A stretch of DNA of 64,000 bases from a virus, in the IMG/VR virus record IMGVR_UViG_3300034103_000446, positions 39,063 through 103,062 of that record, one strand, 5' to 3'. The translations under genes were made by a program, and so were the position numbers. The notes under the pieces were generated by a model, which made no database searches, was not told the DNA's origin, and worked only from the letters and a program-made list of their open reading frames with translations. Each line of letters opens with the position of its first letter. Position 1 is the first letter of the stretch. Positions 1-53,033 of the stretch are shown piece by piece.

Positions 1-2313
1 GTTCTTAGTAATTGTAAAATCTTTATTAGAGTGAAAATGCTGTTGATTGAATTCAACTATTTCTTTTATTCCAGTTTGCCATACTTCCCAATCGCCGCCG
101 GTGAAGTTATTCAATCGTTTGATTTCTTTAACAATAGCTTCAAAGCGTAAATCATCATTTTCAATAGTGTCATATGATTCGTCAATATATGGACTAAATG
201 TTTTATACCCTTGCTCACGTAACACACGCAAGCAATAAGGTCTAGCCATTAATACAAACGGGTGATTTAGTGCAAAGCAACGATATGTTTTTTCAGTTAA
301 GAACAGACTATCTTCTACAAAAGGACGATGCGCTTGATCCGGACGATCCTTATCATAGAACAATGTTTCAGTGATTACACTGAAATAACTGTCTTTATAG
401 TATTGCAAATCATCGGGTTGAATGTCCACTGGGTTATGTCTATCTTCAGTGATATTCAATCGCATAGGAAACATATCTGCATTCTGTCTAATTAATGGAA
501 ACTTTTGATCATGCAATAACGGAATCTTTTCTTTAAAATCGGTATCGCCCTCAAAACTATACCAGGCCTTATCTACTAGACTCTCATGTAACATACGCTC
601 CAACAATACCATACGATGTTCTCTATTAAGTTTGTTAAAGCAAGTAAAGTTTTTTCCACGGAATCTAACATCGTACCCACCGATATATTCATATCCCTGT
701 GCATAAGTTGTAGTGATATAATTAAAGAAATGGCAGTTTAATAACGAAACACGCTTGTTCCAGCCGTTTTTGTCAATTAACTTTTCATACACTTTGTCAG
801 CATCAATTACACCGGTCAATACAATTATGTCTTCTTCTGGAATAATGTCGTCAACAATGTTAGCAATACGCTGAATTTTGCTTTGTACATGCGGCATAAA
901 TGCTTCTGTGGCTGCAAAGAACAAGAACTTAGACTTGCCGTTCTTATGTGCAAGACGCATTTCTTTAACAATGTCTTGTGTAGGTCTACAAACAAACATT
1001 GTTTCAAAGTTAATTGTAGCATCAATTAAATGAATATTGTGCTCATATTCTTTAATGGCCGGAAACATCTCAAGTACTTGACGCATCATTGTTTCTGTAG
1101 TAGTAGACGGAACCTCATATTTATGTTTAGAACGAGTATCACCGTAATGTATGATTTCACCACTGTGTTGTTGGCTAGTCATCTTGCGCCATGGATCAAT
1201 AACTACAGCAGCAGGATCTTTGAACTGTAGACGTTCGACCCAAGACTCCCAATATCCAATTAGAAACACATGAGTCCAGTCTTCACGCAGGTCATGATCC
1301 TCAGTATTTGGATCGTAGTAGTTTAAGTTGCCACCATGCTTTTCAATATTGTAACCTACTAACATACTTGCAGAACCGTTAATATAACTCACCCCCGGTT
1401 TGTATGCTTTACCAATGATGGTTACATTACGACCATTCTCTAGGCAACGTAGGGCCATGCGCTCGGCTTGTACTTCACGTGCGGCCATGATTGAATCAAA
1501 CAAATCATAACCTAAGTCTAGTCTGTCTGCTAGATAGCGTAGTGCAATGTTATCTCTTGGGTGACATGCACCTGCATCTCCTAGTCCGGCTTTCATGTAT
1601 GCCGGACCCATGATGCGATGTGTACTCTTAGCCAATGCTTGTGTAACTACATCTACGTTGATATTGCCATTGGTCTCTGCAACGTCTTGCACCATGTTGA
1701 CAAGTGCTAGCTTAGTGCTGATAAATGTGTTGTAGAAGATTTTGATAGACTCAGCTTCATCCCATGTGCCAACTTCATAGCGTGGCTCGTTCTGCATAAA
1801 CACTTTATAAAAGTCAATTAATTCACTAGCATCACCAGTAAGGCTACCATCATCTGTGCCAATAATTACCATTTCTGGATTTACCATGTCCCATTTTACG
1901 GTGCCCATAGCAATAAGGTAAGGGTTGTAAATGAATCTTGCATTAGTGATACAAGGCTCTAGGATGCTACGAACTGTTCCGGGTAGCACTGTACTGATGA
2001 GGACAACTAATTGACTTTTAGTAACATGTTTATTGACCTCTTTTAAAATGTCAGTGACTATTGTATAGTCAAAATCTTTGTTTGGAAGATGGCTTGTTGG
2101 AGTTTCACCACCATAGATAGGATCATGTGGTGTGGGTGCCGCGATAAAGATAATGTCTCTGTCTGTTACGGCTAATTCTATTGTGTCACGCATGGGGAAT
2201 GCAGGAGTCCTAGGAACAACATCGTATCCAACAACATCATAACCGGCATCTGCCATGACCTCTGCACAATCTTGTCCCAATTTACCCACACCAATCATTG
2301 CTACTTTTTTCAT
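1..2313 (-). CDS. UDP-glucose/GDP-mannose 6-dehydrogenase fused to a C-terminal GT10-like ('TEK') domain; 3' end runs off the window (>=771 aa)
   Basis: Absent from the ORF track because no stop lies in the window. Read manually from ATG 2313 (GAGG RBS at 2320-2323): MKKVAMIGVGKLG (Rossmann), GLGDAGACHPRDN (catalytic Cys motif), GKAYKPG. The frame stays open through HYGDTR (~1130) into FTCFNKLNREHR, YFSVITET, LTEKTYRCFALNHPF and GYKTFSPYIDESYD. Confidence 0.88.
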   Translation of the reverse strand, partial: MKKVAMIGVGKLGQDCAEVMADAGYDVVGYDVVPRTPAFPMRDTIELAVTDRDIIFIAAPTPHDPIYGGETPTSHLPNKDFDYTIVTDILKEVNKHVTKSQLVVLISTVLPGTVRSILEPCITNARFIYNPYLIAMGTVKWDMVNPEMVIIGTDDGSLTGDASELIDFYKVFMQNEPRYEVGTWDEAESIKIFYNTFISTKLALVNMVQDVAETNGNINVDVVTQALAKSTHRIMGPAYMKAGLGDAGACHPRDNIALRYLADRLDLGYDLFDSIMAAREVQAERMALRCLENGRNVTIIGKAYKPGVSYINGSASMLVGYNIEKHGGNLNYYDPNTEDHDLREDWTHVFLIGYWESWVERLQFKDPAAVVIDPWRKMTSQQHSGEIIHYGDTRSKHKYEVPSTTTETMMRQVLEMFPAIKEYEHNIHLIDATINFETMFVCRPTQDIVKEMRLAHKNGKSKFLFFAATEAFMPHVQSKIQRIANIVDDIIPEEDIIVLTGVIDADKVYEKLIDKNGWNKRVSLLNCHFFNYITTTYAQGYEYIGGYDVRFRGKNFTCFNKLNREHRMVLLERMLHESLVDKAWYSFEGDTDFKEKIPLLHDQKFPLIRQNADMFPMRLNITEDRHNPVDIQPDDLQYYKDSYFSVITETLFYDKDRPDQAHRPFVEDSLFLTEKTYRCFALNHPFVLMARPYCLRVLREQGYKTFSPYIDESYDTIENDDLRFEAIVKEIKRLNNFTGGDWEVWQTGIKEIVEFNQQHFHSNKDFTITKN

Positions 2314-2337
2314 TTAATACCTCGTGTATATACCTAA

Positions 2338-2345
2338 TATTTATT
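2338..2345 (-). promoter_or_regulatory. Candidate late promoter (AATAAATA) for the dehydrogenase fusion gene
   Basis: T4-late-like ATAAATA core 25 nt upstream of ATG 2313, next to a bulged hairpin (2343-2366), in the only sizeable gap of the operon. Confidence 0.5.
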
Positions 2346-2372
2346 TGCTAGGGACACTAGCCAAATTTAAAA

Positions 2373-3449
2373 TTACAGTTTACCAAGTAATTCTCTATGC
2401 TCTAACTCTATACCTGGAAGAGCCAGTTGCAGTTGATTTATTTCATTTTCTGTTTGATTCATGTAATGGTTATAGTTGTGTCTTACCATTTCTCTTATTT
2501 CATTTACATTCTTGTCTAAGTTATCTATAAAATGTTTAACACTTTTTGAAGCCCAATCTAAAATCAATTCTGAGTCTTGGCTTATTCTATTAGTATACGG
2601 TAAAAAGAACTTATCAAATGTCTTGTAACCTAATCTAGTTAAGTGTTCATTAATGCCATCGTCCCCTATAATTATAAAAGGATGATGGTTAATCATCGCT
2701 CTGTAGAGTTTTTCAGTTAGATATGGCATTTTCAGACTGGTAATCGTGCCAGGATTAACATCAAAGCTGTTCTCACTGACAATACTAAGACAAGTGTTTT
2801 TGTAATATTTTAGATTGGTTGGGAAACCAGTATACTCAAATACATTGGTATCATAGCATTTTGATATATCAATGTCTAAGCTAGGTCTTTGTATATCTAT
2901 TAATAATTTGCTTATATAACTATCGTCTTGGAGATATTCTATATCCAATGATTTTATTGCATGTATATTGGTTTGGCTAGCTGGGAAATACAAACTATAA
3001 TCTAGATAATCTAATAAATTGTTAACATAGAAATGATGCATAAGACCTATTCTTTGTCTCTTTAATGGTTTACCTATTAAAAACAATGCTTTATTGCTAT
3101 CTGGATACCATTTGCTTGTATGTCTTTTTAAACTGTGTTTATATGTAATATAAGCCCAGGTGTTTAAGTAATACACATTTGTTCTATGCCCGGTTGTTTC
3201 TCTAGCAGTATCATGAAATAGAAAATGATGTGGGATATTTATTGACTGTGCATATTTTCCTACCTCATCTGATATTGAATTCAAGTAATCTGAATCAAAA
3301 CTGCTTAGGCTCTCAACTAGGGCATTGAATATAATTTCATCGCCGGGCGCATAATATGCTTTTAATTGAAATTGAATATCCTCAATGATATCGTCAAACT
3401 TCATTGTATTGCCTATATAGGCAGCAATTCGAACGTAAATGTATTTCAT
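2373..3449 (-). CDS. GT10 (fucosyltransferase)-like 'TEK' domain protein
   Basis: CLSIVSENS...YLTEKLYRAMINHHPF..GYKTF resembles the GT10 FENS...YITEK motif; paralogous to four other domains in the operon. Confidence 0.55.
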   Translation of the reverse strand: MKYIYVRIAAYIGNTMKFDDIIEDIQFQLKAYYAPGDEIIFNALVESLSSFDSDYLNSISDEVGKYAQSINIPHHFLFHDTARETTGHRTNVYYLNTWAYITYKHSLKRHTSKWYPDSNKALFLIGKPLKRQRIGLMHHFYVNNLLDYLDYSLYFPASQTNIHAIKSLDIEYLQDDSYISKLLIDIQRPSLDIDISKCYDTNVFEYTGFPTNLKYYKNTCLSIVSENSFDVNPGTITSLKMPYLTEKLYRAMINHHPFIIIGDDGINEHLTRLGYKTFDKFFLPYTNRISQDSELILDWASKSVKHFIDNLDKNVNEIREMVRHNYNHYMNQTENEINQLQLALPGIELEHRELLGKL

Positions 3450-4237
3450 AATAACGGGAGATAATCTCTGCTCATTAAGTTTCTGATTGATTGGTTAAAA
3501 TTCTGTCTAATATTGTGTAAAGTTTTACACCGGGCCAAGGCAGTTGTAGTAACGGTTGCATAATCTTTAGTGATTGTATTAAACTCTAACCCACATGCTT
3601 CTAAGTAATCATAGTAAGTTATTGGTTTAGGGTGAGGATCAGCATGCGGTTGACCATCGTGATTGATATATGTTACTGGGTCTCTACTCCAATCACGTCC
3701 CATAAAATCATATAATGACATAGGCATATTATCATATTCTTTTTGATATAGGGTTGATAATGTTCTTGATATTTCGATATCATCAACTTTTCCAAAATCA
3801 GTGTATTTAAATGGTACACTTCTTAGTAACAATGTACCACAATTGCTTTGTTGTAGTAACTTATTGGTAATACTAATTATAGCATGGTCACGAATCATGT
3901 GCCCGGTTGGATCACAATATTCTTTTACCCAATCTTTAGGATACTGACTGTTCCAGGCATTGCCTTGAGCAAACCAACCACCATTAATCCAGCGGTCTTC
4001 TCTACTAAATGTAGACCACATAATCATAACTAAATCAGTATCATTAAATTTATATCTAGCATTGGCTTCAGTAACCCTAGCCATAATGCCCAAATTACCC
4101 ATACCCGCCATGGCATGGTTATAGTAATCTGCTTTTGTTTCTACTGCAATTATATCGGCCCAGGTGGGCCATTTATATGCAGTGAAGCTGCAACCAAATG
4201 CGAATATACGCTTATATTTCTTTAAATTTATTTTCAT
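3446..4237 (-). CDS. SGNH/GDSL-like hydrolase or acyltransferase
   Basis: FGCSFT (block I Ser), AGMGN, C-terminal DPHP. Start moved from TTG 4264 to ATG 4237 (MKINLKK). Confidence 0.6.
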   Translation of the reverse strand: MKINLKKYKRIFAFGCSFTAYKWPTWADIIAVETKADYYNHAMAGMGNLGIMARVTEANARYKFNDTDLVMIMWSTFSREDRWINGGWFAQGNAWNSQYPKDWVKEYCDPTGHMIRDHAIISITNKLLQQSNCGTLLLRSVPFKYTDFGKVDDIEISRTLSTLYQKEYDNMPMSLYDFMGRDWSRDPVTYINHDGQPHADPHPKPITYYDYLEACGLEFNTITKDYATVTTTALARCKTLHNIRQNFNQSIRNLMSRDYLPLL

Positions 4238-6260
4238 TTTCTCTGATAAAATTAAGTAAGTCAACAGAATAATCCTGTATCTTATTAAGAACCTGATGAT
4301 TAACTAGTTCCTGCCATGGCTTAGGAACTAGATTGCTATTAGTTGCTAATCTCAATATAACTCGTTTATTGTACATGCACTTTTCAAATACAGAATCATA
4401 TAGTTCTTTTAGTTCAGAGGGTGATTTATCAGTGTATCTTTTTACATTCTGTGCTATTAAATCGTATCTAATTTTAGTGTCGGGTTCGCTGTCAAAACTG
4501 TAATCAAAGAGTTCATCGTATAACTTAAAACCCAACTCCTGTAACTTTTTATGAAAGTTTATAGACCCTGCCACCAAGAAAGGTTTATTAAAGAATAACG
4601 GCATTGCTGTTTTTTCTGTTATAGTAAATGCAATGTCATCTGTTTCAGGAACTAATTGCATAAACGATAATGCATATTCTAATGGGAATGTTTCCTGAGA
4701 TTTAAAACCATCAACCTGATCTCGTAACATTATCTGTTGATTCCAGTATTCAAACTGATAATTGTCTGTGAGTTCTCTCCAAATAACTATACCATTGTCA
4801 ATTATATCATGTTTAGCTAGCATATCCATCATTTTAGCTCTATGTAATTTTGGAGCTTTGTTCATGCTAATATATGGATATTTAATGGGGGTTTTCTCAG
4901 ATACACGAATATTTTCTACATCTAAGCATATACTATTGTTAGCCTGATAATTAGGACTTACTGATAGCCTAGCCAATGCCATAGAGAACCAGAATGTAGT
5001 CCAGTAATATGTATTAACATGTTTATCTACATTTATATGAGTATTGTCTGACGCTGATGCTGTTATTAAATCAAACTCTATGTTATGTATTTTAGCAAAC
5101 TCAACTAATTCATTGAATTTCTCTACGGATCCGTTAATAGTATTGCTGTCAAACTCAGTTGCACCGTTATATATTATCTTAGACACCCGGCCGGCGTTTT
5201 CCATAAACCTATCGGCCCTGTCTAATGTGTTATTGTGCCATATATTGAAATCTATAATTTCATGATTATTAATCATTTTATTATACATATAAATGTATCT
5301 GCCGTCGGTTGCGTTATGCACAATAGAATTGTCATTTCTTAATTCTACTATACGGTCTCTAATCACTGGCGGTATATATTTTACCTCATTTATTATACGG
5401 ATATAATTGTCATAATTACGCTGTGCTTTTTCTTTTATTAACTGATATAACTCAGTAGTATTTTGTTCTGTTATGCGCTTAACATTCAAAGCGATAGCCT
5501 CAGCACGTTTAAGCATATCGGGTTCACTGTCAAAGCTATAATCTATAATCTCGTCATACAACTCAAATCCTAAATCAACTAATCTCTTATGGAAATATTG
5601 ATCGGCCATGATAATAAAAGGCTTTTTAAATAATATAGGTAAACAGGTCTTTTCAGTAATAAATGGCACTGTTGTGGTAGCCTCTCCTATTACATGCAAG
5701 AATGATTTATAGTATTTGTCCGGTATTAAGAATGAATCTAGTTTAGTTTCAAAGTCGTCTGATATTAATCTAACCTCATCATTATAGTGTTTGAATTGAT
5801 ATAAGCTAGGATTTCGTGCTGGAAATCGGTTCCATGTCACAATACCTTTATCTAGTAATCCTTGACCAGTTAACTCATCTACTAACATACAGCGATGCAT
5901 GTGATTCTTGTTATTCAAGCATATATAAGGATAATCGAAATCAGTATAAGTTTGATTAAAGTCTAAATGGTTGCTGCACATTACAGACCAGTTTAACCAG
6001 TATGTGTACCAATTAACTATCTCTATGTTGTTAAAGTGTTGAGTTTGTTGATGATAGTAACTAGTAGGATAGGAACCAACTGTTACAACTAGTTTAATAT
6101 TGTTACTGTTTAATAGTTCTGCTAATTCAACTGTTAATTCACGAGAATGCCATTCTGTTTCACATAAAAATACTATTGTATTTGGCTTCTCTGTGTTAAC
6201 AATGTCTACAAACTTTTCATATGAGGGTTCGTCTAATTGACTGATGTAAACTGTTTTCAT
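4212..6260 (-). CDS. Tandem two-domain GT10-like 'TEK' protein (682 aa)
   Basis: Two homologous halves: YPYICLNNKNHMHR..ITEKTCLPILFKKPF..GFELYDEIIDYSFDSEPD and YPYISMNKAPKLHR..ITEKTAMPLFFNKPF..GFKLYDELFDYSFDSEPD. Confidence 0.65.
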   Translation of the reverse strand: MKTVYISQLDEPSYEKFVDIVNTEKPNTIVFLCETEWHSRELTVELAELLNSNNIKLVVTVGSYPTSYYHQQTQHFNNIEIVNWYTYWLNWSVMCSNHLDFNQTYTDFDYPYICLNNKNHMHRCMLVDELTGQGLLDKGIVTWNRFPARNPSLYQFKHYNDEVRLISDDFETKLDSFLIPDKYYKSFLHVIGEATTTVPFITEKTCLPILFKKPFIIMADQYFHKRLVDLGFELYDEIIDYSFDSEPDMLKRAEAIALNVKRITEQNTTELYQLIKEKAQRNYDNYIRIINEVKYIPPVIRDRIVELRNDNSIVHNATDGRYIYMYNKMINNHEIIDFNIWHNNTLDRADRFMENAGRVSKIIYNGATEFDSNTINGSVEKFNELVEFAKIHNIEFDLITASASDNTHINVDKHVNTYYWTTFWFSMALARLSVSPNYQANNSICLDVENIRVSEKTPIKYPYISMNKAPKLHRAKMMDMLAKHDIIDNGIVIWRELTDNYQFEYWNQQIMLRDQVDGFKSQETFPLEYALSFMQLVPETDDIAFTITEKTAMPLFFNKPFLVAGSINFHKKLQELGFKLYDELFDYSFDSEPDTKIRYDLIAQNVKRYTDKSPSELKELYDSVFEKCMYNKRVILRLATNSNLVPKPWQELVNHQVLNKIQDYSVDLLNFIRENENKFKEI

Positions 6261-10026: not shown

Positions 10027-10027
10027 A

Positions 10028-12347: not shown

Positions 12348-13603
12348 TCAAACACCTCTTTTAGTTCTGGAATAACTTCTTCCAATTTCTCGCCCCTAAA
12401 GTCATCTAGTTCTTCATTGAACTTGATAAACTCTTGGATGCCACCTTTGTTCTCATCACCAACTGTCAAGTTGTAGATAATCATCTTGAATCCGTTATAG
12501 ATATCAATGTTATCTTTATAACGGTTCTGATAGACACGATACAATTCAGCGAGTCTTCGCTTTACACTAGCGGGTAGGATCATAATGTTAGCATACCAGG
12601 GGTTGGTAGCTAAATTAAAGCGTGGGCTAGATTTAGTATCAATAAACCCTTCATTGATCATGTAGTCAAAGAAGTCAGGAAAAGTAAACACATTCCAAAT
12701 ACTGATGGTTGGAGTAATCTGAAATTCAGCATGCGGCACTTGCTCTTTTACTAACTTGATATTACTAACAATACGATCCCAATCTGTACCCTTTCTGATA
12801 CATTCAGCAACATCACCGTGTGCGTCAAGTGATGCCCAAATTTTCAGTTTAGGAAATTTCTTCCAATACGCAATCAAGTCAACATCTTTCTTATACTTCA
12901 AGCTACTAAAGTTTGTTGTATAAGTCAGTTCCACTTGATCCGTTAATCCGTTCTCAATCCAGTAGTCTAAGCATTCATAATGCTCAGGGGTAATAATGAT
13001 TTCACCACCTGCAAAGTAAACTTCTGTAACGTCTTTGAGATATGGCTTGAGTTTGGCCATGAATCCCATTTCTTCTGCTGAATTGATAACAATCTTAGTG
13101 GTCTTAAAGTATTTCTCATAGTTGTCCATACCAACACGGTCAACAAACTCTTGTGCCCATTGACTAGAGCAACCAGGGCCGCAACTACGGCACTTCATGT
13201 TACAGATGCTACTAAAGCGCAAGTCCATGTACTTCATTTCAAAGTCAATTAACTTGCCGTCTTCCATGGTGTTCTCTGCGATGTAATTCACATATTCTAG
13301 GCCCTTGCGTTTGTTGTGAGACTGTCGCATTGTCCATGTGCCCATCAGTTCTAGATCATAACAACGCTTACATGCTTCAACTGGCTCATCGTTCATCATA
13401 GCAGTGCGTAATTTTTTGTAATCTACACTGTTCATCATATTAATGATTGATTCTCCGTCTTTTAAGTCTGCAACAGGCATGTTGCTATCTGCAATACAGC
13501 AAGGCATTACTCGACCGTCAGGCCAGCTATGAAAGTGAACCCAGGGTAGTACACAGAAATGCTTTCCGTGCTTAACTAAGTTTTCTACTGTTACGTTATC
13601 CAT
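12332..13603 (-). CDS. Radical SAM protein with N-terminal Twitch/SPASM-like domain
   Basis: N-terminal FCVLPW..PCC..CKRC precedes CNMKCRSC, AGGE, YTTN and SLD. Confidence 0.88.
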   Translation of the reverse strand: MDNVTVENLVKHGKHFCVLPWVHFHSWPDGRVMPCCIADSNMPVADLKDGESIINMMNSVDYKKLRTAMMNDEPVEACKRCYDLELMGTWTMRQSHNKRKGLEYVNYIAENTMEDGKLIDFEMKYMDLRFSSICNMKCRSCGPGCSSQWAQEFVDRVGMDNYEKYFKTTKIVINSAEEMGFMAKLKPYLKDVTEVYFAGGEIIITPEHYECLDYWIENGLTDQVELTYTTNFSSLKYKKDVDLIAYWKKFPKLKIWASLDAHGDVAECIRKGTDWDRIVSNIKLVKEQVPHAEFQITPTISIWNVFTFPDFFDYMINEGFIDTKSSPRFNLATNPWYANIMILPASVKRRLAELYRVYQNRYKDNIDIYNGFKMIIYNLTVGDENKGGIQEFIKFNEELDDFRGEKLEEVIPELKEVFDWARS

Positions 13604-13608
13604 CTTGA

Positions 13609-14838
13609 TTACTCCAATAATTCAGATAATTTATTTAACTCGGGGAATGTTTTCCAGAAACTTTCCTCACGTATTCTGTCGAGTGATTTGGTATGTCCTA
13701 AGAACTGAGTCTTAACTTCACTCCAACTGTCACTCTCGTTTGCAAAATTTACAGCATCACGCACCAATCGTGATAAGCTAGTGCCGTCGTTGTCGTTGGC
13801 ATCTGCCCATTTTAATGCTTTTTCTTCTGCTAATGGCTTCAATGATTTTGGTAAGCTTTTTGCGCTGTAATACAACGGATGGACTGCTAGATACAAACTA
13901 TGATACCAATCTTCTCGTCTAATGATATTTTTATCCTTAAGATACTGATAGAACTCGCCGATTGTCAAGTAGTTAAAGATTGAGAACACCGTATTCATTT
14001 GAAAACTAACATAATCTAAGTCTCTAAACGTCAACAAGTTGCTTTCAACTTTGCCCCAATCAGTGCCCGAACGTAATAATTCAGCACGTTCACCATAATG
14101 ATCTATTGAACAACTCAATTCAACCTTTTTAAAGTGTTTCCAAAGATCAAGTACATCATGGTTCTTATACTTGATATTACTAGCATTTGTATTGTAGCGT
14201 AATGTTACATCAGTGCGACCCTTACGAATCATTTCTTCTAGTATAACATAGTGTTCTTCTGTAATCAAGGGCTCTCCACCCGCAAAGTACGCTAGGTCTA
14301 TGTGTTCTACTTGATCCAATACTTCTTCTAGAACTTTACCCTTACCATCATCCACGTGAATAACAATTGGGTGATCCTTGTCGTAATTCTTGTTCATCTC
14401 TAGTCCCCACTGACTAGAAAACTCTGAACCGCATGTACGACATTTGAAGTTACAAATGTTACTGAATCTGATATCAAAGTAACGCATCTTAAACTCGTCA
14501 ACCGTTCCATCTTTTTGGGTAGTGGGCACAACTTCGTCATAATACTTGCCAAAGTGTTCTTTACTATAGTTACGGAAACTGTGCGGACCTGCTTCTTCAT
14601 GTTGATAACAGAACTTGCATATTTCATTCTTACGCTCGTTTAGCATATCCAATCTAAGTTCTTTCATCTTAGGACTATTGAATGCTTGTTCGAGGGTAAT
14701 CTCTTTTGTGTTACCAAAAGGTTTGGTGTAATCGTTTGAACAGCAAGGATAGATGTCACCTTTAGGAGTCACATTTAAGTGAAGCCACGGGAACATACAA
14801 AATGTCTTGCTGTCGTTTAATAATTGGTCTTTGTTCAT
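13609..14838 (-). CDS. Radical SAM protein with N-terminal Twitch/SPASM-like domain
   Basis: FCMFPW..PCC..CKFC precedes CNFKCRTC, AGGEP, YNTN and SID; paralogue of 12332-13603. Confidence 0.88.
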   Translation of the reverse strand: MNKDQLLNDSKTFCMFPWLHLNVTPKGDIYPCCSNDYTKPFGNTKEITLEQAFNSPKMKELRLDMLNERKNEICKFCYQHEEAGPHSFRNYSKEHFGKYYDEVVPTTQKDGTVDEFKMRYFDIRFSNICNFKCRTCGSEFSSQWGLEMNKNYDKDHPIVIHVDDGKGKVLEEVLDQVEHIDLAYFAGGEPLITEEHYVILEEMIRKGRTDVTLRYNTNASNIKYKNHDVLDLWKHFKKVELSCSIDHYGERAELLRSGTDWGKVESNLLTFRDLDYVSFQMNTVFSIFNYLTIGEFYQYLKDKNIIRREDWYHSLYLAVHPLYYSAKSLPKSLKPLAEEKALKWADANDNDGTSLSRLVRDAVNFANESDSWSEVKTQFLGHTKSLDRIREESFWKTFPELNKLSELLE

Positions 14839-16244
14839 TTAAATGGGTTCAGTTGGTTTGTTTCTTGGCACAGTCTGTAGAAGCCCAGCATCTCAGGGAA
14901 CACTGATAGCATGTCTGCTTCTCGGCGCTCATCTAATTCATTGAACCAATTATAGAAGTCTCTGCGACCTTCGATTAGTTTTTCTTCAGGGTAAACAGTC
15001 TCAGCCATGTAATCTACTACACGCTTGAACTTTTCATATTCTATTGAGCTAAATGCATCACTGCGTTTGTCATCAGTGTTAGCCTTCATATACTCCAATG
15101 CCTCATACATATAGGGCATGAATTCTTCTTTGGGAAGGATGTTCATATCATATTGAATAGGATCACGTAGATATGGGGTATCAAAACGCACACGATGTTG
15201 TGGGTTGACCGGGTCATCATACCATCCGTATATCTTGCGCCACTCAATAAACTTCTCCAAGAAGCTTTTGAATGTAGTCACTGAGAAGATGTTGAACGTA
15301 ATCATAAACGTGATCGGACTATCAGTTCCTTTAAGATATGTGTGGAAGTTCTGTTCCCATAGCTCTAAATCTAAGCCTGTACGAATGTATTCAGCACGAG
15401 GGCCCCATGTATCTAGGCTAGTAAATAGTTTGAAACTTTTGATCTTGCCCTCGTCAGTAAGCTTTTTAACTTTCTCTGCAAGACGCTCAATAAGAATAGG
15501 CTTAGTACCTAAGTTACTGTTAATGTTCAACTCTAACCAGGGCATTGGATCTTCATCAATTTTTTCTAGCAATGTCCATGTTGAACGATGTAGTGTAGGT
15601 TCTCCACCGGTAACACGTAAGATGTTCAGTGTCTTGCGCATCTCAGGCCACCATTCCCAGAATGCATCAACATATGGGTTATCATCTTCACGTTGATACA
15701 ATCGCATCCAATCTATATCACAACGATGGTTCTTAACTGATGTTACAGGGCCGTTTTGTTCAATCTCTTTGTAGAAGCTTGTGCTATACTTAGGGTGGCA
15801 GTAGCCGCACTTGAAGTTACATTCGTTACCGAAGTTGATTTCGATGTACTCGGGGTTGATGTTTTGATTCCACGGACCCTTTGCTGTTTGTTCATATCGT
15901 TCATCAGTAAAGATACTTGCGTTACGAATGTGACGGTCACTGATGTAATCCGGACCCATTGCCTCGATGTTCCAGCAATACTGACAACCAGTAGGCTTAC
16001 CACCGTCAAGCATTAGTTTACGTTCTTCTTTCTTCTGCTGTGTGTTATGAAGTGCAGAAGGGTTATCATATAATTCTTCTAAAGGAATTTTATGAGGTTG
16101 AGGATGGTAACAACTATGAGTCTCTCCTGATTGCAAATACATTGTTACATGATGCCATTTAGCAAGGCAAAATGTAGGACCAGTCTCGTTTTCGATCTTA
16201 ATCCTAATGTCTTTGATTCTTTTTTGTTCGTGACTCTCGCTCAT
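14835..16244 (-). CDS. Radical SAM protein with N-terminal Twitch-like domain
   Basis: FCLAKW..SCYH..CQYC precedes CNFKCGYC and TGGEPT. Start likely ATG 16244 (TAATG overlap) rather than 16250. Confidence 0.85.
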   Translation of the reverse strand: MSESHEQKRIKDIRIKIENETGPTFCLAKWHHVTMYLQSGETHSCYHPQPHKIPLEELYDNPSALHNTQQKKEERKLMLDGGKPTGCQYCWNIEAMGPDYISDRHIRNASIFTDERYEQTAKGPWNQNINPEYIEINFGNECNFKCGYCHPKYSTSFYKEIEQNGPVTSVKNHRCDIDWMRLYQREDDNPYVDAFWEWWPEMRKTLNILRVTGGEPTLHRSTWTLLEKIDEDPMPWLELNINSNLGTKPILIERLAEKVKKLTDEGKIKSFKLFTSLDTWGPRAEYIRTGLDLELWEQNFHTYLKGTDSPITFMITFNIFSVTTFKSFLEKFIEWRKIYGWYDDPVNPQHRVRFDTPYLRDPIQYDMNILPKEEFMPYMYEALEYMKANTDDKRSDAFSSIEYEKFKRVVDYMAETVYPEEKLIEGRRDFYNWFNELDERREADMLSVFPEMLGFYRLCQETNQLNPFK

Positions 16245-17197
16245 TACCATCCTTCAATTTTTCGAATTACTTCCATCTCGGTGACTAGAGGGCCTTGATT
16301 GTGATAATCAGATTGATAGTGACGTTTGAAGAACTTACTTTGTTCAGGGCTTAATGTACACATAGGCAATCCTAATTTAGCATACAATGCTTCGCCAATC
16401 AACTCTGATTGTTTCATCGGATCTTTTAATTCATGTTCTTCCCATAACACTGGATAGTTATCAAACCATTGCACATTATGACAATCCCATTCAGTTAGCA
16501 TCGTCATGTATGTTCCAAGACGAGCGCCATAGATAGCCCAGATACCGTTCTCAACATCTGCACCGACGTTCTGCCAAATAGTTAAGTTATTTAGATTGCG
16601 ACTTGCAACCCGTTCTTTGAACTCAGTAGCATCCGGCTTCTCACCCTTGTCAAGAACCATCTTGACCCCTTCACGAAACCCTGCACGCCATGCTTGAAAT
16701 GGTGTATGATTGGGATAGGTTGTGCTGTAGCAGTCATACATCGCCCAGTACAAGTTGTCTTTACTATCTAAGCAGAAGTCAGCAATGCGTGAACTATCAC
16801 CGTCTTTCTGTGCTTCATGCGTTTTCATGTTAGCAACATAAGTCTTTGTCCAAGAACTCATACCACCATTACCATAACGCAACCCATTAATAGCATTGAC
16901 TGCTTTCCAGCGAAATTGTGCTTTATAGTATGATGGATCTCGGCCCGTGAAGTCAAGTTGCATATTGAAGAACGATTCGTCGGGCATGTTGTCCCCGTCA
17001 ATCAATATGAATCGCTCAGTGTCGCTAGCGGCGCCGGCAGCTTTGTGGGCAGCATCAGAGCCTTTGACCCCGTCTACACGCTTGGCCCAAGGGACCATGT
17101 TCTTAATCTTTAGCCAGAATTCTTCTTTTTGTGGCTCGTCATAGCTTAGGTAGATGCAGTCCAAATCTGCTACATCAACAATATCATTTAAGCTCAT
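16244..17197 (-). CDS. Putative GT-A-fold glycosyltransferase-like protein
   Basis: YLSYDEP, RVDGVKGSDAAHKAA, FILIDGDN (DxD after a hydrophobic strand), YGNGG. Confidence 0.5.
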   Translation of the reverse strand: MSLNDIVDVADLDCIYLSYDEPQKEEFWLKIKNMVPWAKRVDGVKGSDAAHKAAGAASDTERFILIDGDNMPDESFFNMQLDFTGRDPSYYKAQFRWKAVNAINGLRYGNGGMSSWTKTYVANMKTHEAQKDGDSSRIADFCLDSKDNLYWAMYDCYSTTYPNHTPFQAWRAGFREGVKMVLDKGEKPDATEFKERVASRNLNNLTIWQNVGADVENGIWAIYGARLGTYMTMLTEWDCHNVQWFDNYPVLWEEHELKDPMKQSELIGEALYAKLGLPMCTLSPEQSKFFKRHYQSDYHNQGPLVTEMEVIRKIEGW

Positions 17198-17534
17198 AAG
17201 TGTTTAGTTTCCATCTAATAATGTTATCACCTTCTGACGAAACTAAACTAATATCTTCTGCTTCACATATCTGACCTTGAGTGATATGAGGCATGAGTTT
17301 AGAAACAATTGCATGGTTACTGGCAGTAGAAATTTTACCGTTAATGATTCGAATATCAGGGCGTGCCTGTGCAAAAGTAATAGCGTCAACTATCAGATAA
17401 GTACCTTCGGGTTTCTCGCAAGTATAGCAAGTGACTCGACCAGTATCTTCATCATAATATAGACGAAACTCCGGAACTTCAATCTTGGGTGCTTCCCAAA
17501 GAATTAGTACTTCATCTTGTGTAGTTTCAGTCAT
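17184..17534 (-). CDS. Hypothetical protein (116 aa)
   Basis: Overlaps both neighbours in the operon; no recognisable motif. Confidence 0.6.
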   Translation of the reverse strand: MTETTQDEVLILWEAPKIEVPEFRLYYDEDTGRVTCYTCEKPEGTYLIVDAITFAQARPDIRIINGKISTASNHAIVSKLMPHITQGQICEAEDISLVSSEGDNIIRWKLNTYELK

Positions 17535-18330
17535 AGGCTTTTAGTATTTTATTAGAAAATGTCTTCACATGATAGTGAAAAGGGTAAAGCTGGGGGCAAG
17601 AATTAATTCTCAATGTGTGAGGTAATATTTCATACACTAATGCATCAGTCCAATCTTCAGTGGGAAGATTGTTAATCAACCGTTTCATATGAACCATGCT
17701 CATTTCATCAAAGTTAGGCAATGTGCAATTTTCTACTCCCATAACATGTGTAGCATATGCGTATACCCAATCAGTAGTTGCCTCTTCATATGGGCTGCAT
17801 TTGAGTGTGGACCTAAACTCAGACCAATTCTCAAACACATACCGAACTGTTTCAAAGAACTTCTTAGCAGTCTCTGACTTCTTAAAATATGTAATTGCGT
17901 TGTACGTATCGGGTAACTTGTTATCATCAATGAATCTACGATAGACCCGTGATGGACTTATCTCTTGTTTGAAATCTCTAATCTTAGTTGAGATTACCAA
18001 ATCACGATGCTTCAACGCATCCCACCAATAGTCGATTGATCTAGGAAGATATATGTCTGCTTCTAGTTTTATAGTGTACTCATATGGGCTAGCGTCATAT
18101 ACTTGCCAATCATTGTTCAACTTCCAAAAGCTTTTAGGTGATTGATCTCCGTAAGGCAAGGGTATGATTTTATCATAGAGTGCAGTGTTTTTAATCTTAT
18201 TGTTCGTGATGATTGACACTTTAGCATCAGGCATTGTGCGTTTTATGCTCTTTGCTAATGCTTCTGCGCATTTCTGATAAGTGTCTAATGTGCCACCATC
18301 TTGTGCAACGATAACGAAACCTTTATCCAT
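17527..18330 (-). CDS. GT-A (GT8-like) glycosyltransferase, ExD variant
   Basis: A.ALAKSIK..V.IIT, SPYEYTIKLEAD and late VHMK; paralogue of the upstream gene. Confidence 0.6.
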   Translation of the reverse strand: MDKGFVIVAQDGGTLDTYQKCAEALAKSIKRTMPDAKVSIITNNKIKNTALYDKIIPLPYGDQSPKSFWKLNNDWQVYDASPYEYTIKLEADIYLPRSIDYWWDALKHRDLVISTKIRDFKQEISPSRVYRRFIDDNKLPDTYNAITYFKKSETAKKFFETVRYVFENWSEFRSTLKCSPYEEATTDWVYAYATHVMGVENCTLPNFDEMSMVHMKRLINNLPTEDWTDALVYEILPHTLRINSCPQLYPFHYHVKTFSNKILKAYD

Positions 18331-19132
18331 TTTTTATTAACTCCAAAAAGTTTTCTTTGTTCATCACATGGAAGTCAGTGTCTTTGATATTGATATACTC
18401 TTTGCGAATTTTACCACGCTGCCAGTTGTCAAACATAACAGTGTATTCAGTATTGAATTCTGTTTCTTTATCGGCATACACTGATGTGTTCTTACCAACA
18501 TGAAGTAGGTTCCATGGGATAATATCTGACTCATGGTTCACATGTCCGTTGGCTATACGTAATGCTAATGTCAATGCGTAGTCATTTCTATATACACCTG
18601 CGATAAAGCTATGAATGTTTGCATAGTGTTCATAGTTCTTTTGAACCATTTCTAAACATTCAAATATCTGCTTTGCTCGGTTTGTTTTTCTAAATGTGAT
18701 TACAGTGGCCCACAATGTATTGAAGCTATAAGCACTTAATACTTCTTGCGGGGCTTTTGGATGCATCAAGAATGATGTAGTATCGTGACAGCAGAAGTCT
18801 TCACAAATATCAAAGGTACTTAATAACCTATTGCTATTAACCACATAGTCAGTGTCTAATAGCAATGTTTCATCATACGGACTTAAGTCATATGCTTGAT
18901 ATCTACCTTTGTTAATCCACACTACATAGTCTCGAATGTTGTTCTTGTCTGGTTCTACAACAATCGTATTGTCAAACATGTAGGTGGAATTCTTTGGTAT
19001 GCTGGATTCATCAGTAACTATTGTTACTGGAAGTCCCAAAAAATGATTTATTCTCTTTGCAGTGTACTCCGCCATAGCGTAGTAATTGTATTTGGGTGAG
19101 TTAAACGCAAAGAGTAGTGCGCCTCTATTCAT
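18323..19132 (-). CDS. GT-A (GT8-like) glycosyltransferase
   Basis: SPYDETLLLDTD (DxD), RNDYA, DFHVMNK. Start moved to ATG 19132 (ATGA overlap with the upstream stop). Confidence 0.65.
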   Translation of the reverse strand: MNRGALLFAFNSPKYNYYAMAEYTAKRINHFLGLPVTIVTDESSIPKNSTYMFDNTIVVEPDKNNIRDYVVWINKGRYQAYDLSPYDETLLLDTDYVVNSNRLLSTFDICEDFCCHDTTSFLMHPKAPQEVLSAYSFNTLWATVITFRKTNRAKQIFECLEMVQKNYEHYANIHSFIAGVYRNDYALTLALRIANGHVNHESDIIPWNLLHVGKNTSVYADKETEFNTEYTVMFDNWQRGKIRKEYINIKDTDFHVMNKENFLELIKNG

Positions 19133-19434
19133 CGTTTTTTCTCTAACTCTGCCCATTCATTTAGCCACTCACGCATTACAGATTCGTAAGTTTCATTAAG
19201 TTTAGCTAAAAGTTCTGTACGATTTACCTCAACTGGATTTTCAAAACTGTCAACTAAGATGACAGTTTCTGATTGAGAATTGTTTAAAAAATTGATTGTT
19301 TGGAGATTTGCTCTCCAAAGCCCGCCTTGCTCTGCAACAATTAAGCGTGTTTCATACTTTTCTTTTAGATATGATTTGGCAGCGTTGTGGCTAAAGCGGG
19401 CTTTAGCATCGCTAATTAAAGTTTTTGTGTCCAT
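19129..19434 (-). CDS. Hypothetical protein (101 aa), first gene of the modification operon
   Basis: AGGAG RBS at 19441-19445 and a late-promoter motif upstream. Confidence 0.7.
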   Translation of the reverse strand: MDTKTLISDAKARFSHNAAKSYLKEKYETRLIVAEQGGLWRANLQTINFLNNSQSETVILVDSFENPVEVNRTELLAKLNETYESVMREWLNEWAELEKKR

Positions 19435-19449
19435 AGATCACTCCTAAGA

Positions 19450-19457
19450 GTATTTAG
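19450..19457 (-). promoter_or_regulatory. Candidate late promoter (CTAAATAC) heading the glycosyltransferase/radical SAM operon
   Basis: TAAATA core immediately upstream of the RBS; the same core precedes structural genes elsewhere in the window. Confidence 0.55.
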
Positions 19458-19482
19458 ATAAACACAAGCACTCGCTTAAAAA

Positions 19483-20433: not shown

Positions 20434-20442
20434 CTTTTATCC

Positions 20443-21692: not shown

Positions 21693-22313
21693 TTAAATAG
21701 TTACTAAGTTAGTCAGGGCCTGAATCCTAACAGTGTAATCTATCTGAATTTGTCTATTCAAAGACTTTTGTACGGGGTGAAAAATAACATGAGTTAAAAG
21801 TCTAGTTATAACATTCCCGTCGTTATCTGTTCCATAATTGGCTAATAAGCCAAGTTCATCAAAAACGTACTCACCGTCGGTTTGAGTACTGTTATCAAAT
21901 GCGTTTTGTCCTGCAGGTTCACCGTAATCTAACAAACATTGTACTAAAATGTCAGTATAGACCTTACCGGTAGTATGAGAAACTGTCATTTTGTTACGTG
22001 TAGGATCTAAGTTAAAAACGCTAGTATCATCAACAATCTTAGTATAAGTTTGGTTATACAATGCTGCATTTTGACCAGTAGTATTAGGAGGCAAATAAGT
22101 GATAACTCCTGTTTCGTCTACGCTTGCACCACCGTTACCAAATGCCATTTCGTAGATTTCTCCGTAACCTCGACTGCTTAATGTGTCAGCAATAGCTTCT
22201 GACATATTTTCATAGTTGATAGCGTTCTTTTTATCCACTAAAACTTCCCCAGTATTAGGGTCATGGATTTTAAGAAAACCTTCAATCTGATATGTTATTT
22301 GTATTCCTGACAT
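21693..22313 (-). CDS. Baseplate/tail-fibre attachment structural protein
   Basis: Position between the giant structural gene and the tail fibre; FDELGL..LLTHVIFHPVQKS..IDYTVRI. Confidence 0.6.
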   Translation of the reverse strand: MSGIQITYQIEGFLKIHDPNTGEVLVDKKNAINYENMSEAIADTLSSRGYGEIYEMAFGNGGASVDETGVITYLPPNTTGQNAALYNQTYTKIVDDTSVFNLDPTRNKMTVSHTTGKVYTDILVQCLLDYGEPAGQNAFDNSTQTDGEYVFDELGLLANYGTDNDGNVITRLLTHVIFHPVQKSLNRQIQIDYTVRIQALTNLVTI

Positions 22314-52962: not shown

Positions 52963-52981
52963 AGTAGTATTATCCTTATCT

Positions 52982-53000: not shown

Positions 53001-53033
53001 AATGCGCTTTTTACCTTTTCCTCTATCTTTCTA

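What the first reader, a model, noticed from the sequence alone, without database searches (positions are those of the whole stretch)
1..19457. Late-expressed 19-kb glycosylation plus radical-SAM tailoring operon attached to the tail module: candidate virion glycan-decoration system
Seen: 16 genes from 19434 to 2373 overlap or lie within 5 nt of each other, followed by the dehydrogenase fusion. They start at a TAAATA motif (19450-19457) directly behind the tail-fibre genes, and a second motif sits at 2338-2345. Content: 3 GT-A-like enzymes, 5 GT10-like domains, 2 nucleotide-sugar enzymes, 2 SGNH proteins and 5 radical SAM enzymes. Established: TATAAATA-type promoters are read by gp55 late in infection, whereas T4-type DNA-modifying enzymes are generally expressed before or during replication. 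Inference: the operon builds a branched, acylated and radical-modified glycan on the Thr/Ser/Asn-rich tail and baseplate proteins, or alternatively on the host surface. I know of no characterised phage pathway with this composition.
Basis: partly seen in the sequence, partly recalled or inferred. Interest (0 to 1): 0.88.

Follow-up and report, generated by a model that had tools for sequence, protein, structure and literature searches.

The report
Jumbo-phage tail-fibre-linked glycan tailoring cluster
An uncultured giant lake phage carries, directly behind its tail-fibre genes, a large block of soluble sugar-adding and radical-chemistry enzymes that most likely builds an elaborate sugar coat for its own particle; the target is untested, but a cultured relative that infects Ralstonia solanacearum makes a test possible.

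Summary
Sixteen packed minus-strand genes (19434 to 2373) plus a dehydrogenase fusion encode five intact radical SAM enzymes, three GT-A-type transferases, five homologous GT-B domains, two SGNH-like proteins and two sugar-nucleotide enzymes. The block is only part of a cluster of about 37 kb that runs 19 kb past the window start. The same stretch was noted before from an overlapping window (e1-6051678).

Three things are new here.
- The cluster has a conserved core behind the fibre genes: three GT-A genes, two small genes, three N-twitch radical SAM genes and one further radical SAM gene. The core is colinear in 68 of 71 related viral contigs. A shuffled, variable tailoring part follows it.
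- The TAAATA motif before the first gene is kept in 39 of 39 distinct relatives.
- The cultured Ralstonia jumbo phage RsoM2USA has the same core order next to a giant protein detected in its virions by mass spectrometry.

None of the 25 cluster proteins has a predicted membrane helix, and no membrane transferase, flippase or polymerase was recognised.

A glycan synthesis and tailoring pathway is well supported. Virion fibres as the target is the best-supported reading but is unproven. Late timing is inferred from the motifs only. "GT10-like" holds only at the level of fold and motif.

The parts
19450..19458 (-). Late-promoter-like motif TCTAAATAC, 22 nt before the first gene of the block
   Evidence: ATCTAAATAC or a TAAATA variant is kept in 39/39 distinct relatives. 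TAAATA is enriched upstream of genes in this contig.
19129..19434 (-). Small conserved protein (101 aa), first gene of the core; function unknown
   Evidence: no family hit. Present in 47 related loci, about 63% identity.
18323..19156 (-). GT-A-type, GT8-like glycosyltransferase (277 aa)
   Evidence: Paralogue of 17527-18330 (hhalign probability 100%). Invariant D101 and D103 (DxD). The joint profile hits glycogenin at E 0.0013-0.025 across the DxD region. Atlas look-alikes carry GT8/Nucleotid_trans.
17527..18330 (-). Second GT8-like GT-A paralogue (267 aa)
   Evidence: Present in 72 related loci.
17184..17534 (-). Small conserved protein (116 aa) with a CxxC pair; function unknown
   Evidence: no hit. 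The only named look-alikes are tail-fibre assembly proteins at score 0.79, which is within noise.
16244..17197 (-). GT-A-fold transferase of an unnamed family (317 aa), the best-conserved transferase
   Evidence: AF2 model, pLDDT 83.6. GT-A matches include PBCV-1 A64R, BcsA and WrtF, with Z up to 9.1 over residues 5-170. Invariant D67-G68-D69. 1493 cluster representatives at E<=0.001.
14835..16250 (-). N-terminal-twitch radical SAM enzyme (471 aa)
   Evidence: NF033640, 312.8 bits against a cut-off of 170. CxxxCxxC present. 37% identical orthologue in RsoM2USA, next to that phage's GT-A genes.
13609..14838 (-). N-terminal-twitch radical SAM enzyme (409 aa)
   Evidence: NF033640, 372.1 bits. 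Pfam SPASM at residues 14-78, before Radical_SAM at 124-279. Present in 80 related viral loci.
12332..13603 (-). N-terminal-twitch radical SAM enzyme (423 aa)
   Evidence: NF033640, 356.3 bits.
11355..12347 (-). Radical SAM enzyme (330 aa) with a Cys-rich C-terminus; last gene of the conserved core
   Evidence: Pfam Radical_SAM at 5.3e-07. Sequence read. Present in 71 related loci at about 72% identity.
10028..11368 (-). GT-B glycosyltransferase (446 aa) with an E-T-N...T-E-K motif; first gene of the variable part
   Evidence: AF2 model, pLDDT 89.8. GT-B matches by Foldseek and VIA, Z 11.7-9; the GT10 fucosyltransferases 5zoi (10.8) and 8d0o (10.2) are tied with other families. Invariant residues.
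9046..10026 (-). NAD-dependent sugar-nucleotide epimerase/reductase (326 aa)
   Evidence: Pfam Epimerase 1.8e-43. GDP-L-fucose synthase model 8.6e-36, below its cut-off.
8178..9083 (-). SGNH/GDSL-like protein (301 aa from the listed TTG; the true start may lie later)
   Evidence: Invariant G21-C22-S23, G80/G83, N86 and H279-P280. The only PDB profile hits are GDSL-like proteins at block V, E 0.3-0.9. Pfam Lipase_GDSL was matched weakly by 11 members of the pooled homologue set.
6257..8185 (-). Cobalamin-dependent (class B) radical SAM C-methyltransferase (642 aa)
   Evidence: Pfam B12-binding plus Radical_SAM. KedN5-family model 1.3e-73, below its cut-off. TokK 5.3e-77 and CysS 1.9e-53 in the PDB.
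4212..6260 (-). Tandem duplication of the GT-B module (682 aa)
   Evidence: The two halves match each other at hhalign probability 99.7%, and each matches the 446-aa family at 96-97%.
3446..4264 (-). Second SGNH-like protein (272 aa from the listed TTG)
   Evidence: Invariant G24-C25-S26, G56-N57 and D209-x-H211-P212. Weak relation to 8178-9083 (hhalign probability 38%). No PDB or Pfam support.
2373..3449 (-). GT-B module paralogue (358 aa)
   Evidence: hhalign probability 97.7% to the 446-aa family.
2338..2345 (-). Second late-promoter-like motif AATAAATA, 30 nt before the fusion gene
   Evidence: TAAATA lies upstream of the dehydrogenase gene in 11 of 14 relatives.
1..2313 (-). First 771 of 1053 aa of a fusion: UDP-glucose dehydrogenase, GT-B module (aa 457-784), SAM methyltransferase
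   Evidence: The GT-B part matches at hhalign probability 99.7%. The dehydrogenase stands alone in most relatives.
19483..21660 (-). Two Thr/Ser/Gly-rich fibre-type genes directly upstream (316 aa and 405 aa); candidate acceptors
   Evidence: The 405-aa protein has a virion-protein N-terminus (phrog_14394) and a Peptidase_G2 autoproteolytic chaperone-type C-terminus. Ser+Thr is 28.8% and 21.9%. GATAAATA lies upstream in 43/43 relatives.

Best explanation
The block is the window-side half of a cytoplasmic pathway of about 37 kb that makes and heavily tailors a glycan.

Conserved core. Two GT8-like GT-A enzymes, one GT-A enzyme of an unnamed family, two small proteins, three N-twitch radical SAM enzymes and one further radical SAM enzyme lie directly behind the tail-fibre genes. 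A conserved T4-type late-promoter-like motif precedes them. The core is inferred to start a glycan on a soluble acceptor and to reshape its first sugars by radical chemistry.

Variable part. It holds GT-B paralogues, SGNH-type acyl enzymes, cobalamin radical SAM C-methylases, a UDP-glucose dehydrogenase and an SDR epimerase. Beyond the window it adds an aminotransferase fragment, a cupin-GT fusion and a carbamoyltransferase. This part is inferred to extend and decorate the glycan differently in each phage lineage.

Acceptor. The most likely acceptor is the phage's own Thr/Ser-rich fibre or giant virion proteins, which would give a strain-variable glycan coat on the particle.

Shown: enzyme families, folds, synteny and motif conservation. 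Inferred: late timing, the acceptor, the sugar chemistry and the role of the radical SAM enzymes. My odds are about 0.85 that this is a glycan synthesis and tailoring pathway, and about 0.45 that virion proteins are the acceptor.
For: - Enzyme content.
- All cluster and flanking proteins lack a predicted membrane helix (maximum Kyte-Doolittle 19-residue mean 1.7 or less), and no Pfam/NCBIfam hit to a membrane transferase, flippase or polymerase was returned. The pathway therefore does not by itself make a lipid-linked surface polymer.
- A fibre gene lies directly upstream of the first GT-A gene in 56/57 related contigs, and the core is colinear in 68/71.
- RsoM2USA, a cultured phage of a beta-proteobacterium, keeps this order: giant protein, fibre-like gene, small gene, two GT8-like genes, small gene, GT-A (40% identity), N-twitch radical SAM (37%). 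Its giant protein ORF361 was found in virions by mass spectrometry (PMC8504454).
- A core kept together with fibre genes across phages of different hosts fits a phage-borne acceptor better than a host-specific surface glycan.
- The promoter-like motif is conserved and shared with baseplate and fibre genes, whereas the early-looking part of the contig uses TTGACA...TATAAT promoters.
- In bacteria, N-twitch radical SAM genes sit beside carbohydrate-type enzymes: GDSL, GT2 and GT-C genes, cobalamin radical SAM genes and a carbamoyltransferase.
Against: - There are no expression data. No RNA run holds the stretch.
- The motif also precedes the sigma-factor gene and a GIY-YIG/gp47-like operon, so it may not mark late genes only.
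- No glycoprotein evidence exists for this phage or for RsoM2USA.
- Soluble transferases also act on lipid-linked intermediates in ordinary O-antigen pathways, so the lack of membrane proteins is not decisive.
- The 80 related loci belong to one clade and are not independent.
- Comparable gene sets in large cyanomyoviruses have been read as host cell-wall modification genes (PMC12801897).
Confidence: 0.45

Rival explanations
1. Host envelope remodelling. The soluble enzymes feed host lipid-linked intermediates and change LPS, capsule or another surface glycan of the infected cell. This could block superinfection or hold back released progeny, as proposed for the 'LPS' gene clusters of large cyanomyoviruses.
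For: - Large T4-like cyanophages carry many transferases, epimerases, a DegT-like aminotransferase, an amidinotransferase and a radical SAM gene, which their authors read as cell-wall modification genes (PMC12801897).
- One bacterial N-twitch locus holds GT2 and GT-C membrane transferases.
- O-antigen transferases are often soluble.
Against: - No initiating transferase, flippase, polymerase or any membrane protein was found.
- The core is kept with fibre genes in phages of very different hosts.
- The promoter motif is shared with structural genes.
Confidence: 0.2
2. Protein-directed radical tailoring. The N-twitch and cobalamin radical SAM enzymes modify the fibre polypeptides themselves (for example C-methylation, epimerisation or cross-links, as in proteusin-type peptide maturation). 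The transferases add sugars separately.
For: - SPASM/twitch radical SAM enzymes are best known as peptide maturases (my own knowledge).
- In one Bacteroidota genome two N-twitch genes lie with five PhyH oxygenases, a WelO5-like enzyme, a methyltransferase, two cobalamin radical SAM genes and a secreted fibre-like protein carrying a Peptidase_S74 chaperone domain.
- The phage's 405-aa fibre also ends in a chaperone-type autoproteolytic domain.
Against: - The fibre-protein neighbour was seen in a single bacterial locus.
- The other bacterial loci and RsoM2USA pair N-twitch genes with sugar-type enzymes.
- No recognisable peptide-binding (RRE) domain or leader peptide was found.
- The closest solved relatives of the cobalamin enzyme, TokK and CysS, act on small molecules.
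Confidence: 0.15
3. DNA hypermodification. The transferases glycosylate modified bases of the phage genome to escape restriction, as in T4 and other phages with glycosylated DNA.
For: - T4 beta- and alpha-glucosyltransferases are among the GT-B structural matches (Z 10.9 and 9.3, tied with many others).
- Phages are known to hypermodify DNA with diverse glycans (Pyle et al. 2024, cited within PMC12619734).
Against: - The only thymidylate-synthase-family gene in this contig and in two relatives 92-100% complete is a canonical enzyme, with Asn in the PFNIASY motif.
- Eleven transferase domains in the window alone, six radical SAM enzymes and the acyl and carbamoyl enzymes far exceed any known DNA glycan.
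- The position and promoter motif match structural genes.
Confidence: 0.05
4. Small-molecule product. The cluster makes an aminoglycoside-like or other glycosylated metabolite during infection.
For: The aminotransferase, putative amidinotransferase, carbamoyltransferase and TokK/GenK-type cobalamin methylases are typical of antibiotic sugar tailoring (note e1-6051679).
Against: - No cyclitol or aglycone synthase and no exporter was found.
- The core is tied to fibre genes in all relatives.
- Eleven transferase domains in the window point to a polymer or a branched glycan.
Confidence: 0.07

Closest known systems
Mycobacteriophage virion O-glycosylation (Freeman et al. 2023, cited in PMC12619734 and PMC12801897)
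   Same: Phage-encoded transferases lie near structural genes, and the phage's own virion proteins are the acceptor.
   Different: That system is reported to use about two transferases and to modify capsid and tail-tube C-termini. Here there are at least 11 transferase domains, six radical SAM enzymes and sugar-nucleotide and acyl enzymes. The linkage is to fibre genes, and the acceptor is unproven.
Giant-virus glycosylation machinery (chlorovirus PBCV-1 A64R; Mimivirus fibril glycan clusters, R655/R699)
   Same: A virus-encoded, host-independent cytoplasmic pathway combines sugar-nucleotide enzymes and GT-A transferases to coat the particle. A64R, R655 and R699 are structural matches of the 317-aa GT-A protein.
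   Different: Those are eukaryotic viruses, with no sequence-level kinship. As far as I know, radical SAM enzymes are not part of those pathways.
'LPS / cell-wall synthesis and modification' gene sets of large T4-like cyanomyoviruses (P-SSM2, S-SCSM1, S-SCSM2R; PMC12801897)
   Same: Many transferases and epimerases occur together with a DegT-like aminotransferase, an amidinotransferase and a radical SAM gene in a large myovirus. Function is uncharacterised.
   Different: No N-twitch radical SAM tandem was found in cultured phages other than RsoM2USA and Vibrio phages K566/K567. The fibre-linked conserved core has not been described. The cyanophage authors favour the host surface or antibiotic synthesis.
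Ralstonia jumbo phage RsoM2USA ORF348-355 (MG752970; PMC8504454)
   Same: It has the same core gene order, with 27-40% identical GT-A genes and a 37% identical N-twitch radical SAM gene behind a fibre-like gene and a giant protein confirmed in virions.
   Different: All these genes are annotated as hypothetical. The core is shorter, with one radical SAM gene there and a second N-twitch gene plus a carbamoyltransferase at another locus. No GT-B family member was detected.
Cobalamin radical SAM methylases TokK, CysS and the KedN5/GenK type
   Same: 6257-8185 shares the B12-binding and radical SAM domains. TokK matches at 5.3e-77.
   Different: It scores below the KedN5 family cut-off (248 against 700 bits). 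The substrate here is unknown.

Membership tests
CAZy GT10 (alpha-1,3/4-fucosyltransferases), for the five GT-B domains | GT-B two-Rossmann fold | tested here: met
   AF2 model, pLDDT 89.8. GT-B matches only.
CAZy GT10 (alpha-1,3/4-fucosyltransferases), for the five GT-B domains | Match to the family profile (Pfam Glyco_transf_10) | tested here: not met
   No hit at E<=10 for the window proteins, and none at E<=1 among 118 pooled homologues.
CAZy GT10 (alpha-1,3/4-fucosyltransferases), for the five GT-B domains | FxxxFENS...YxTEK donor-binding motif (recalled from the literature) | tested here: inconclusive
   Invariant E322-T323-N324 and T333-E334-K335 resemble the motif. By my own reading the spacing is two residues longer.
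CAZy GT10 (alpha-1,3/4-fucosyltransferases), for the five GT-B domains | Structurally closer to GT10 than to other GT-B families | tested here: inconclusive
   5zoi Z 10.8, 8d0o 10.2 and 7yro 9.8 are tied with EXT1 (11.7), 8xsh (11.3), 3rhz (11.0) and T4 BGT (10.9).
GT-A / GT8 (glycogenin-like), for 18323-19156 and 17527-18330 | DxD metal/donor motif and profile similarity to GT8 | tested here: met
   Invariant D101/D103. 19 of 20 PDB profile hits are glycogenins, E 0.0013-0.025, aligned over the DxD region. One homologue hits Pfam GT8 at 0.0032. The support is weak but consistent; no structure model was made.
GT-A fold transferases, for 16244-17197 | Nucleotide-diphospho-sugar transferase fold with DxD | tested here: met
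   (Z up to 9.1 over residues 5-170). Invariant D67-G68-D69. The C-terminal helical half is unassigned.
SGNH/GDSL hydrolase-acyltransferase superfamily | Blocks I (GxS), II (G), III (GxN) and V (DxxH) | tested here: inconclusive
   The residues are present and invariant in both proteins. Block V of 8178-9083 has N276 in place of Asp. Pfam and PDB hits are GDSL but below significance. 3446-4264 has motif support only.
NCBIfam NF033640 N_Twi_rSAM | Score above the curated cut-off; twitch domain N-terminal to the radical SAM core; CxxxCxxC | tested here: met
   356.3, 372.1 and 312.8 bits against a cut-off of 170. SPASM lies before Radical_SAM. Motifs read. 11355-12347 is not a member (30 bits).
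Class B cobalamin radical SAM methyltransferases | N-terminal B12-binding domain plus radical SAM core, and kinship to characterised methylases | tested here: met
   (TokK 5.3e-77). It is not a member of the KedN5 subfamily: 248 bits against a cut-off of 700.
T4-type late promoter (gp55-dependent) | TATAAATA-like box upstream of the gene, with a gp55-type sigma factor encoded by the phage | tested here: met
   7 of 8 matches at both sites. The box is conserved in relatives. A sigma factor for late transcription lies at 53034-53990 (phrog_12791, 3.1e-72).
T4-type late promoter (gp55-dependent) | Transcription late in infection | not testable with these tools
   No RNA holder was listed.
Wzx/Wzy- or ABC-dependent surface polysaccharide locus | Initiating phosphoglycosyl transferase, flippase or transporter, polymerase (membrane proteins) | tested here: not met
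   No such Pfam/NCBIfam hit. No predicted membrane helix in any cluster protein.
T4-type DNA glycosylation system | Pyrimidine hydroxymethylase that supplies the acceptor base | tested here: inconclusive
   There is one thymidylate-synthase-family gene per genome, with the canonical Asn motif. Only 29% of this genome is held, and a dUMP hydroxymethylase cannot be excluded from this residue alone.
Phage virion glycosylation (mycobacteriophage type) | Glycan detected on virion proteins | not testable with these tools
   Needs glycoproteomics. Only the gene linkage to structural genes was tested.

The most novel reading that the evidence does not exclude
Jumbo phages of this clade, including the cultured RsoM2USA, use a dedicated late pathway to put a glycan on their tail fibres or giant virion protein. 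N-terminal-twitch radical SAM enzymes, a family with no known reaction, rebuild either the sugars or the fibre polypeptide. This would be the first virion modification pathway in a phage that depends on radical SAM chemistry. Its shuffled outer part would act like a phage 'serotype' locus.
Probability: 0.35. Interest if true: 0.85.

Novelty: new variant of a known kind. Interest (0 to 1): 0.64.

Why it matters
Large phages have been known for about twenty years to carry polysaccharide-type gene clusters, and no function has been shown for them. This study defines a conserved, fibre-linked core and a variable tailoring part. It ties them to a promoter motif shared with structural genes and identifies a cultured phage with the same core. 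Whether the virion, the host surface or the DNA is the target therefore becomes directly testable. It also gives a biological setting for the N-twitch radical SAM family and for two unnamed transferase families that are abundant in metagenomes. If the glycan sits on fibres, it bears on host recognition, on protection of the fibres, and on the diversity of freshwater phages.

Tried and rejected
- No near-identical DNA among deposited phages.
- Pfam at E<=10 gave nothing for ten of the proteins.
- PDB profile searches gave nothing useful for the GT-B family, the 317-aa GT-A protein, 3446-4264, the 277-aa family alone, or an N-twitch enzyme.
- Sigma-70-type promoters and intrinsic terminators are not enriched in the block (64 found against 74 expected; 12 against 10.5). 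Only a weak hairpin lies at 19507-19488.
- No RNA holder was listed for the stretch. The DNA occurs in lake-water metagenomes of many studies.
- The genome-contig scan found only one 1.7-kb contig in a Flavobacteriaceae bin, probably phage DNA.
- The two small proteins show no similarity to their positional counterparts in RsoM2USA.
- The exact 10-mer ATCTAAATAC occurs once per genome, so it does not mark a separate promoter class.
- A literature search for radical SAM, jumbo phage and glycosyltransferase together returned nothing.
- The 'moraphage' paper (PMC12619734) reports core transferases in another aquatic jumbo lineage, but I could not link it to this clade.
- I considered a stop-codon recoding or frameshift as the reason for SPASM domains at N-termini. 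I rejected it because the curated family NF033640 has exactly this domain order.

Full report
**Setting.** The window is bases 39063-103062 of a 103-kb viral contig. It encodes baseplate wedge, hub and virion proteins, a gp55-type late sigma factor, gp46/47-type nucleases and a 6491-aa ORF. The baseplate wedge protein is about 33% identical to those of Atu_ph07, Rak2-type and other 340-490-kb myophages. The contig is therefore a fragment of a jumbo myophage. CheckV puts completeness at 29%. The DNA occurs in lake-water metagenomes.

**Observation: packing and motifs.** Sixteen minus-strand ORFs from 19434 to 2373 overlap or lie within 5 nt of each other. A 59-nt gap and the fusion gene follow. 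The minus strand reads TCTAAATAC at 19458-19450 and AATAAATA at 2345-2338.

**Observation: family content.**
- Three members of NCBIfam NF033640, the N-terminal-twitch radical SAM family, score 313-372 bits against a cut-off of 170.
- A fourth radical SAM enzyme has a Cys-rich C-terminus.
- A cobalamin radical SAM methylase is related to TokK (5.3e-77).
- An SDR epimerase/reductase and a UDP-glucose dehydrogenase are present.
- All five radical SAM proteins keep CxxxCxxC.

**The proteins without Pfam hits.**
- *GT-B family.* Alignments built from related viral contigs gave a confident model of 10028-11368 (pLDDT 89.8). It is a GT-B glycosyltransferase. Profile comparison shows that 2373-3449, both halves of 4212-6260 and residues 457-784 of the fusion are homologues of it. 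Three more copies lie outside the window.
- *GT10 membership is not established.* There is no Pfam GT10 hit. The GT10 fucosyltransferases (Z 10.8, 10.2) are tied with other GT-B families. What remains is an invariant E-T-N...T-E-K stretch that resembles the GT10 donor motif.
- *317-aa GT-A protein.* 16244-17197 folds as a GT-A transferase with an invariant DGD. Structural matches include the chlorovirus capsid-glycosylating enzyme A64R and Mimivirus R655/R699. The family has 1493 representatives and no name.
- *GT8-like pair.* 18323-19156 and 17527-18330 are paralogues. Their joint profile finds almost only glycogenins (GT8), aligned across the DxD motif.
- *SGNH-like pair.* Both keep the SGNH block residues. 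Only weak GDSL hits back this up.

**Extent.** The cluster continues beyond the window start. The fusion is 1053 aa and ends in a SAM methyltransferase. Downstream lie:
- a second cobalamin radical SAM gene;
- a short DegT-type aminotransferase;
- a 328-aa protein;
- a cupin (Asp/Arg-hydroxylase-like)-GT-B fusion;
- a carbamoyltransferase;
- a 2717-aa repeat protein whose C-terminus is homologous to the 317-aa GT-A enzyme (hhalign 97%);
- two more GT-B genes.

**Synteny.** Eighty IMG/VR contigs, some 333-364 kb long, encode a relative of the 409-aa radical SAM enzyme. Mapping all cluster proteins onto them shows a conserved core: fibre 405, fibre 316, small protein, two GT8-like genes, small protein, GT-A, three or four N-twitch genes, and the fourth radical SAM gene. 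These genes are detected in 47-80 of the 80 loci (the seven core enzymes in 71-80), at median identities of 52-76% and still recognisable in the most distant relatives, where the GT8-like and fibre genes drop to about 27-35%.
- A fibre homologue lies directly upstream of the first GT-A gene in 56 of 57 loci.
- The core is colinear in 68 of 71.
- Downstream of the core the content is shuffled. GT-B, SGNH, cobalamin radical SAM, dehydrogenase, aminotransferase and cupin-GT genes appear in different numbers and orders.
- All these loci belong to one clade, so the counts are not independent events.

**A cultured relative.** Ralstonia jumbo phage RsoM2USA supplies a more distant case. ORF361 (giant), ORF355 (fibre-like), 354, 353 and 352 (GT8-like), 351, 350 (GT-A, 40% identity), 349 (N-twitch, 37%) and 348 (a second GT-A of the same family) stand in the same order. 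ORF361 was detected in virions by mass spectrometry (PMC8504454).

**Promoters.**
- TAAATA, mostly as GATAAATA, lies 22-40 nt before the starts of baseplate, virion and fibre genes. It is enriched in upstream gaps (11 of 33 against 2.1 expected).
- The early-looking part of the contig instead shows TTGACA-N17-TATAAT promoters.
- The box before the first cluster gene is kept in 39 of 39 distinct relatives while its flanks vary. The box before the 405-aa fibre gene is kept in 43 of 43.
- The motif also precedes the sigma-factor gene and a GIY-YIG/gp47-type operon, so 'late' remains an inference. No RNA data were available.

**Which target?**
- *Against a self-contained surface-polysaccharide pathway.* No cluster protein has a predicted membrane helix, and no initiating transferase, flippase or polymerase is present.
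- *Against hydroxymethyl-cytosine-type DNA glycosylation.* The only thymidylate-synthase-family gene in this contig and in near-complete relatives has the canonical Asn motif.
- *For a phage-borne acceptor.* The core is co-conserved with fibre genes across phages of different hosts, and the fibre proteins are 22-29% Ser+Thr.
- None of this is direct evidence.

**Radical SAM enzymes.** NF033640 members occur in about 1% of sampled Bacteroidota genomes (4-5 of 401), often in tandem. Three bacterial neighbourhoods were seen:
- a GDSL protein, a methyltransferase-GT2 fusion and GT-C enzymes;
- a cobalamin radical SAM gene and a carbamoyltransferase;
- five PhyH oxygenases, a WelO5-like enzyme, a methyltransferase, cobalamin radical SAM genes and a secreted fibre-like protein with a Peptidase_S74 chaperone domain.

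The first two favour sugar substrates. The third keeps a protein substrate open. No solved structure is related by sequence.

**Comparison and verdict.** Known relatives in kind are mycobacteriophage virion glycosylation, giant-virus glycan machineries, and the uncharacterised transferase, aminotransferase and radical SAM gene sets of large cyanomyoviruses (PMC12801897). This cluster differs in three ways: its fibre-linked conserved core, its tandem N-twitch radical SAM enzymes, and its modular variable part. I rate it a new variant of a known kind. A glycan pathway is well supported, the virion is the leading but unproven target, and RsoM2USA offers an experimental route.

Noticed in passing
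window 22480-41955 (-): A single 6491-aa ORF, Thr-rich in long stretches, lies between the baseplate wedge gene and the fibre genes. Only FG-GAP and E1_FCCH fragments hit Pfam. Its positional counterpart in RsoM2USA (ORF361, 2541 aa) is a virion protein by mass spectrometry.
   Followed up: partly
contig bases 22796-30949 (L002:2796-10949, -), outside the window: A 2717-aa repeat protein ends in a domain homologous to the 317-aa GT-A enzyme (residues 2499-2654, hhalign 97.4%). It may be a giant transferase rather than a structural protein.
   Followed up: partly
window 52963-53033: A palindromic pair of GATAAATA boxes (TATTTATC|GATAAATA) lies between the divergent virion-protein gene and the gp55-like sigma gene. 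It is a possible bidirectional late promoter that would let the sigma factor drive its own gene.
   Followed up: no
window 22313-22465 (-): A 50-aa ORF overlaps the start of 21693-22313 by one base. The region upstream of that gene is conserved in a coding-like pattern in relatives.
   Followed up: no
window 19488-19507 (-): A weak hairpin followed by a conserved T-run spans the last codons and stop of the 316-aa fibre gene, just before the cluster's promoter-like box. It is a possible partial terminator.
   Followed up: no
contig about 9650-14300 (window -29408 to -24758): A run of short genes, each preceded by a near-consensus TTGACA...TATAAT promoter, looks like the early region.
   Followed up: no
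L003:5306-5896 (-), outside the window: The DegT-type aminotransferase has only 196 aa and matches only the middle of the Pfam model (positions 165-239 of 360). This short form is nevertheless conserved at about 59% identity in 21 relatives.
   Followed up: no
L105 (Bacteroidota genome G080, contig 2, 1208000-1227999): Two N-twitch radical SAM genes lie with five PhyH oxygenases, a WelO5-like enzyme, a methyltransferase, two cobalamin radical SAM genes and an 842-aa Peptidase_S74/T9SS fibre-like protein. This is a possible protein-tailoring locus.
   Followed up: partly
L107 (Vibrio phage K566, 161548-168284): Four N-twitch radical SAM homologues are clustered in a cultured 255-kb Vibrio phage. 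None of the transferase families of this window was detected next to them.
   Followed up: partly
L003:2565-4340 (-), outside the window: A fusion joins an Asp/Arg-hydroxylase-like cupin to a GT-B module. It recalls bifunctional protein hydroxylase-glycosyltransferases such as collagen LH3 or Mimivirus L230 (my own knowledge), which would fit a protein acceptor.
   Followed up: no
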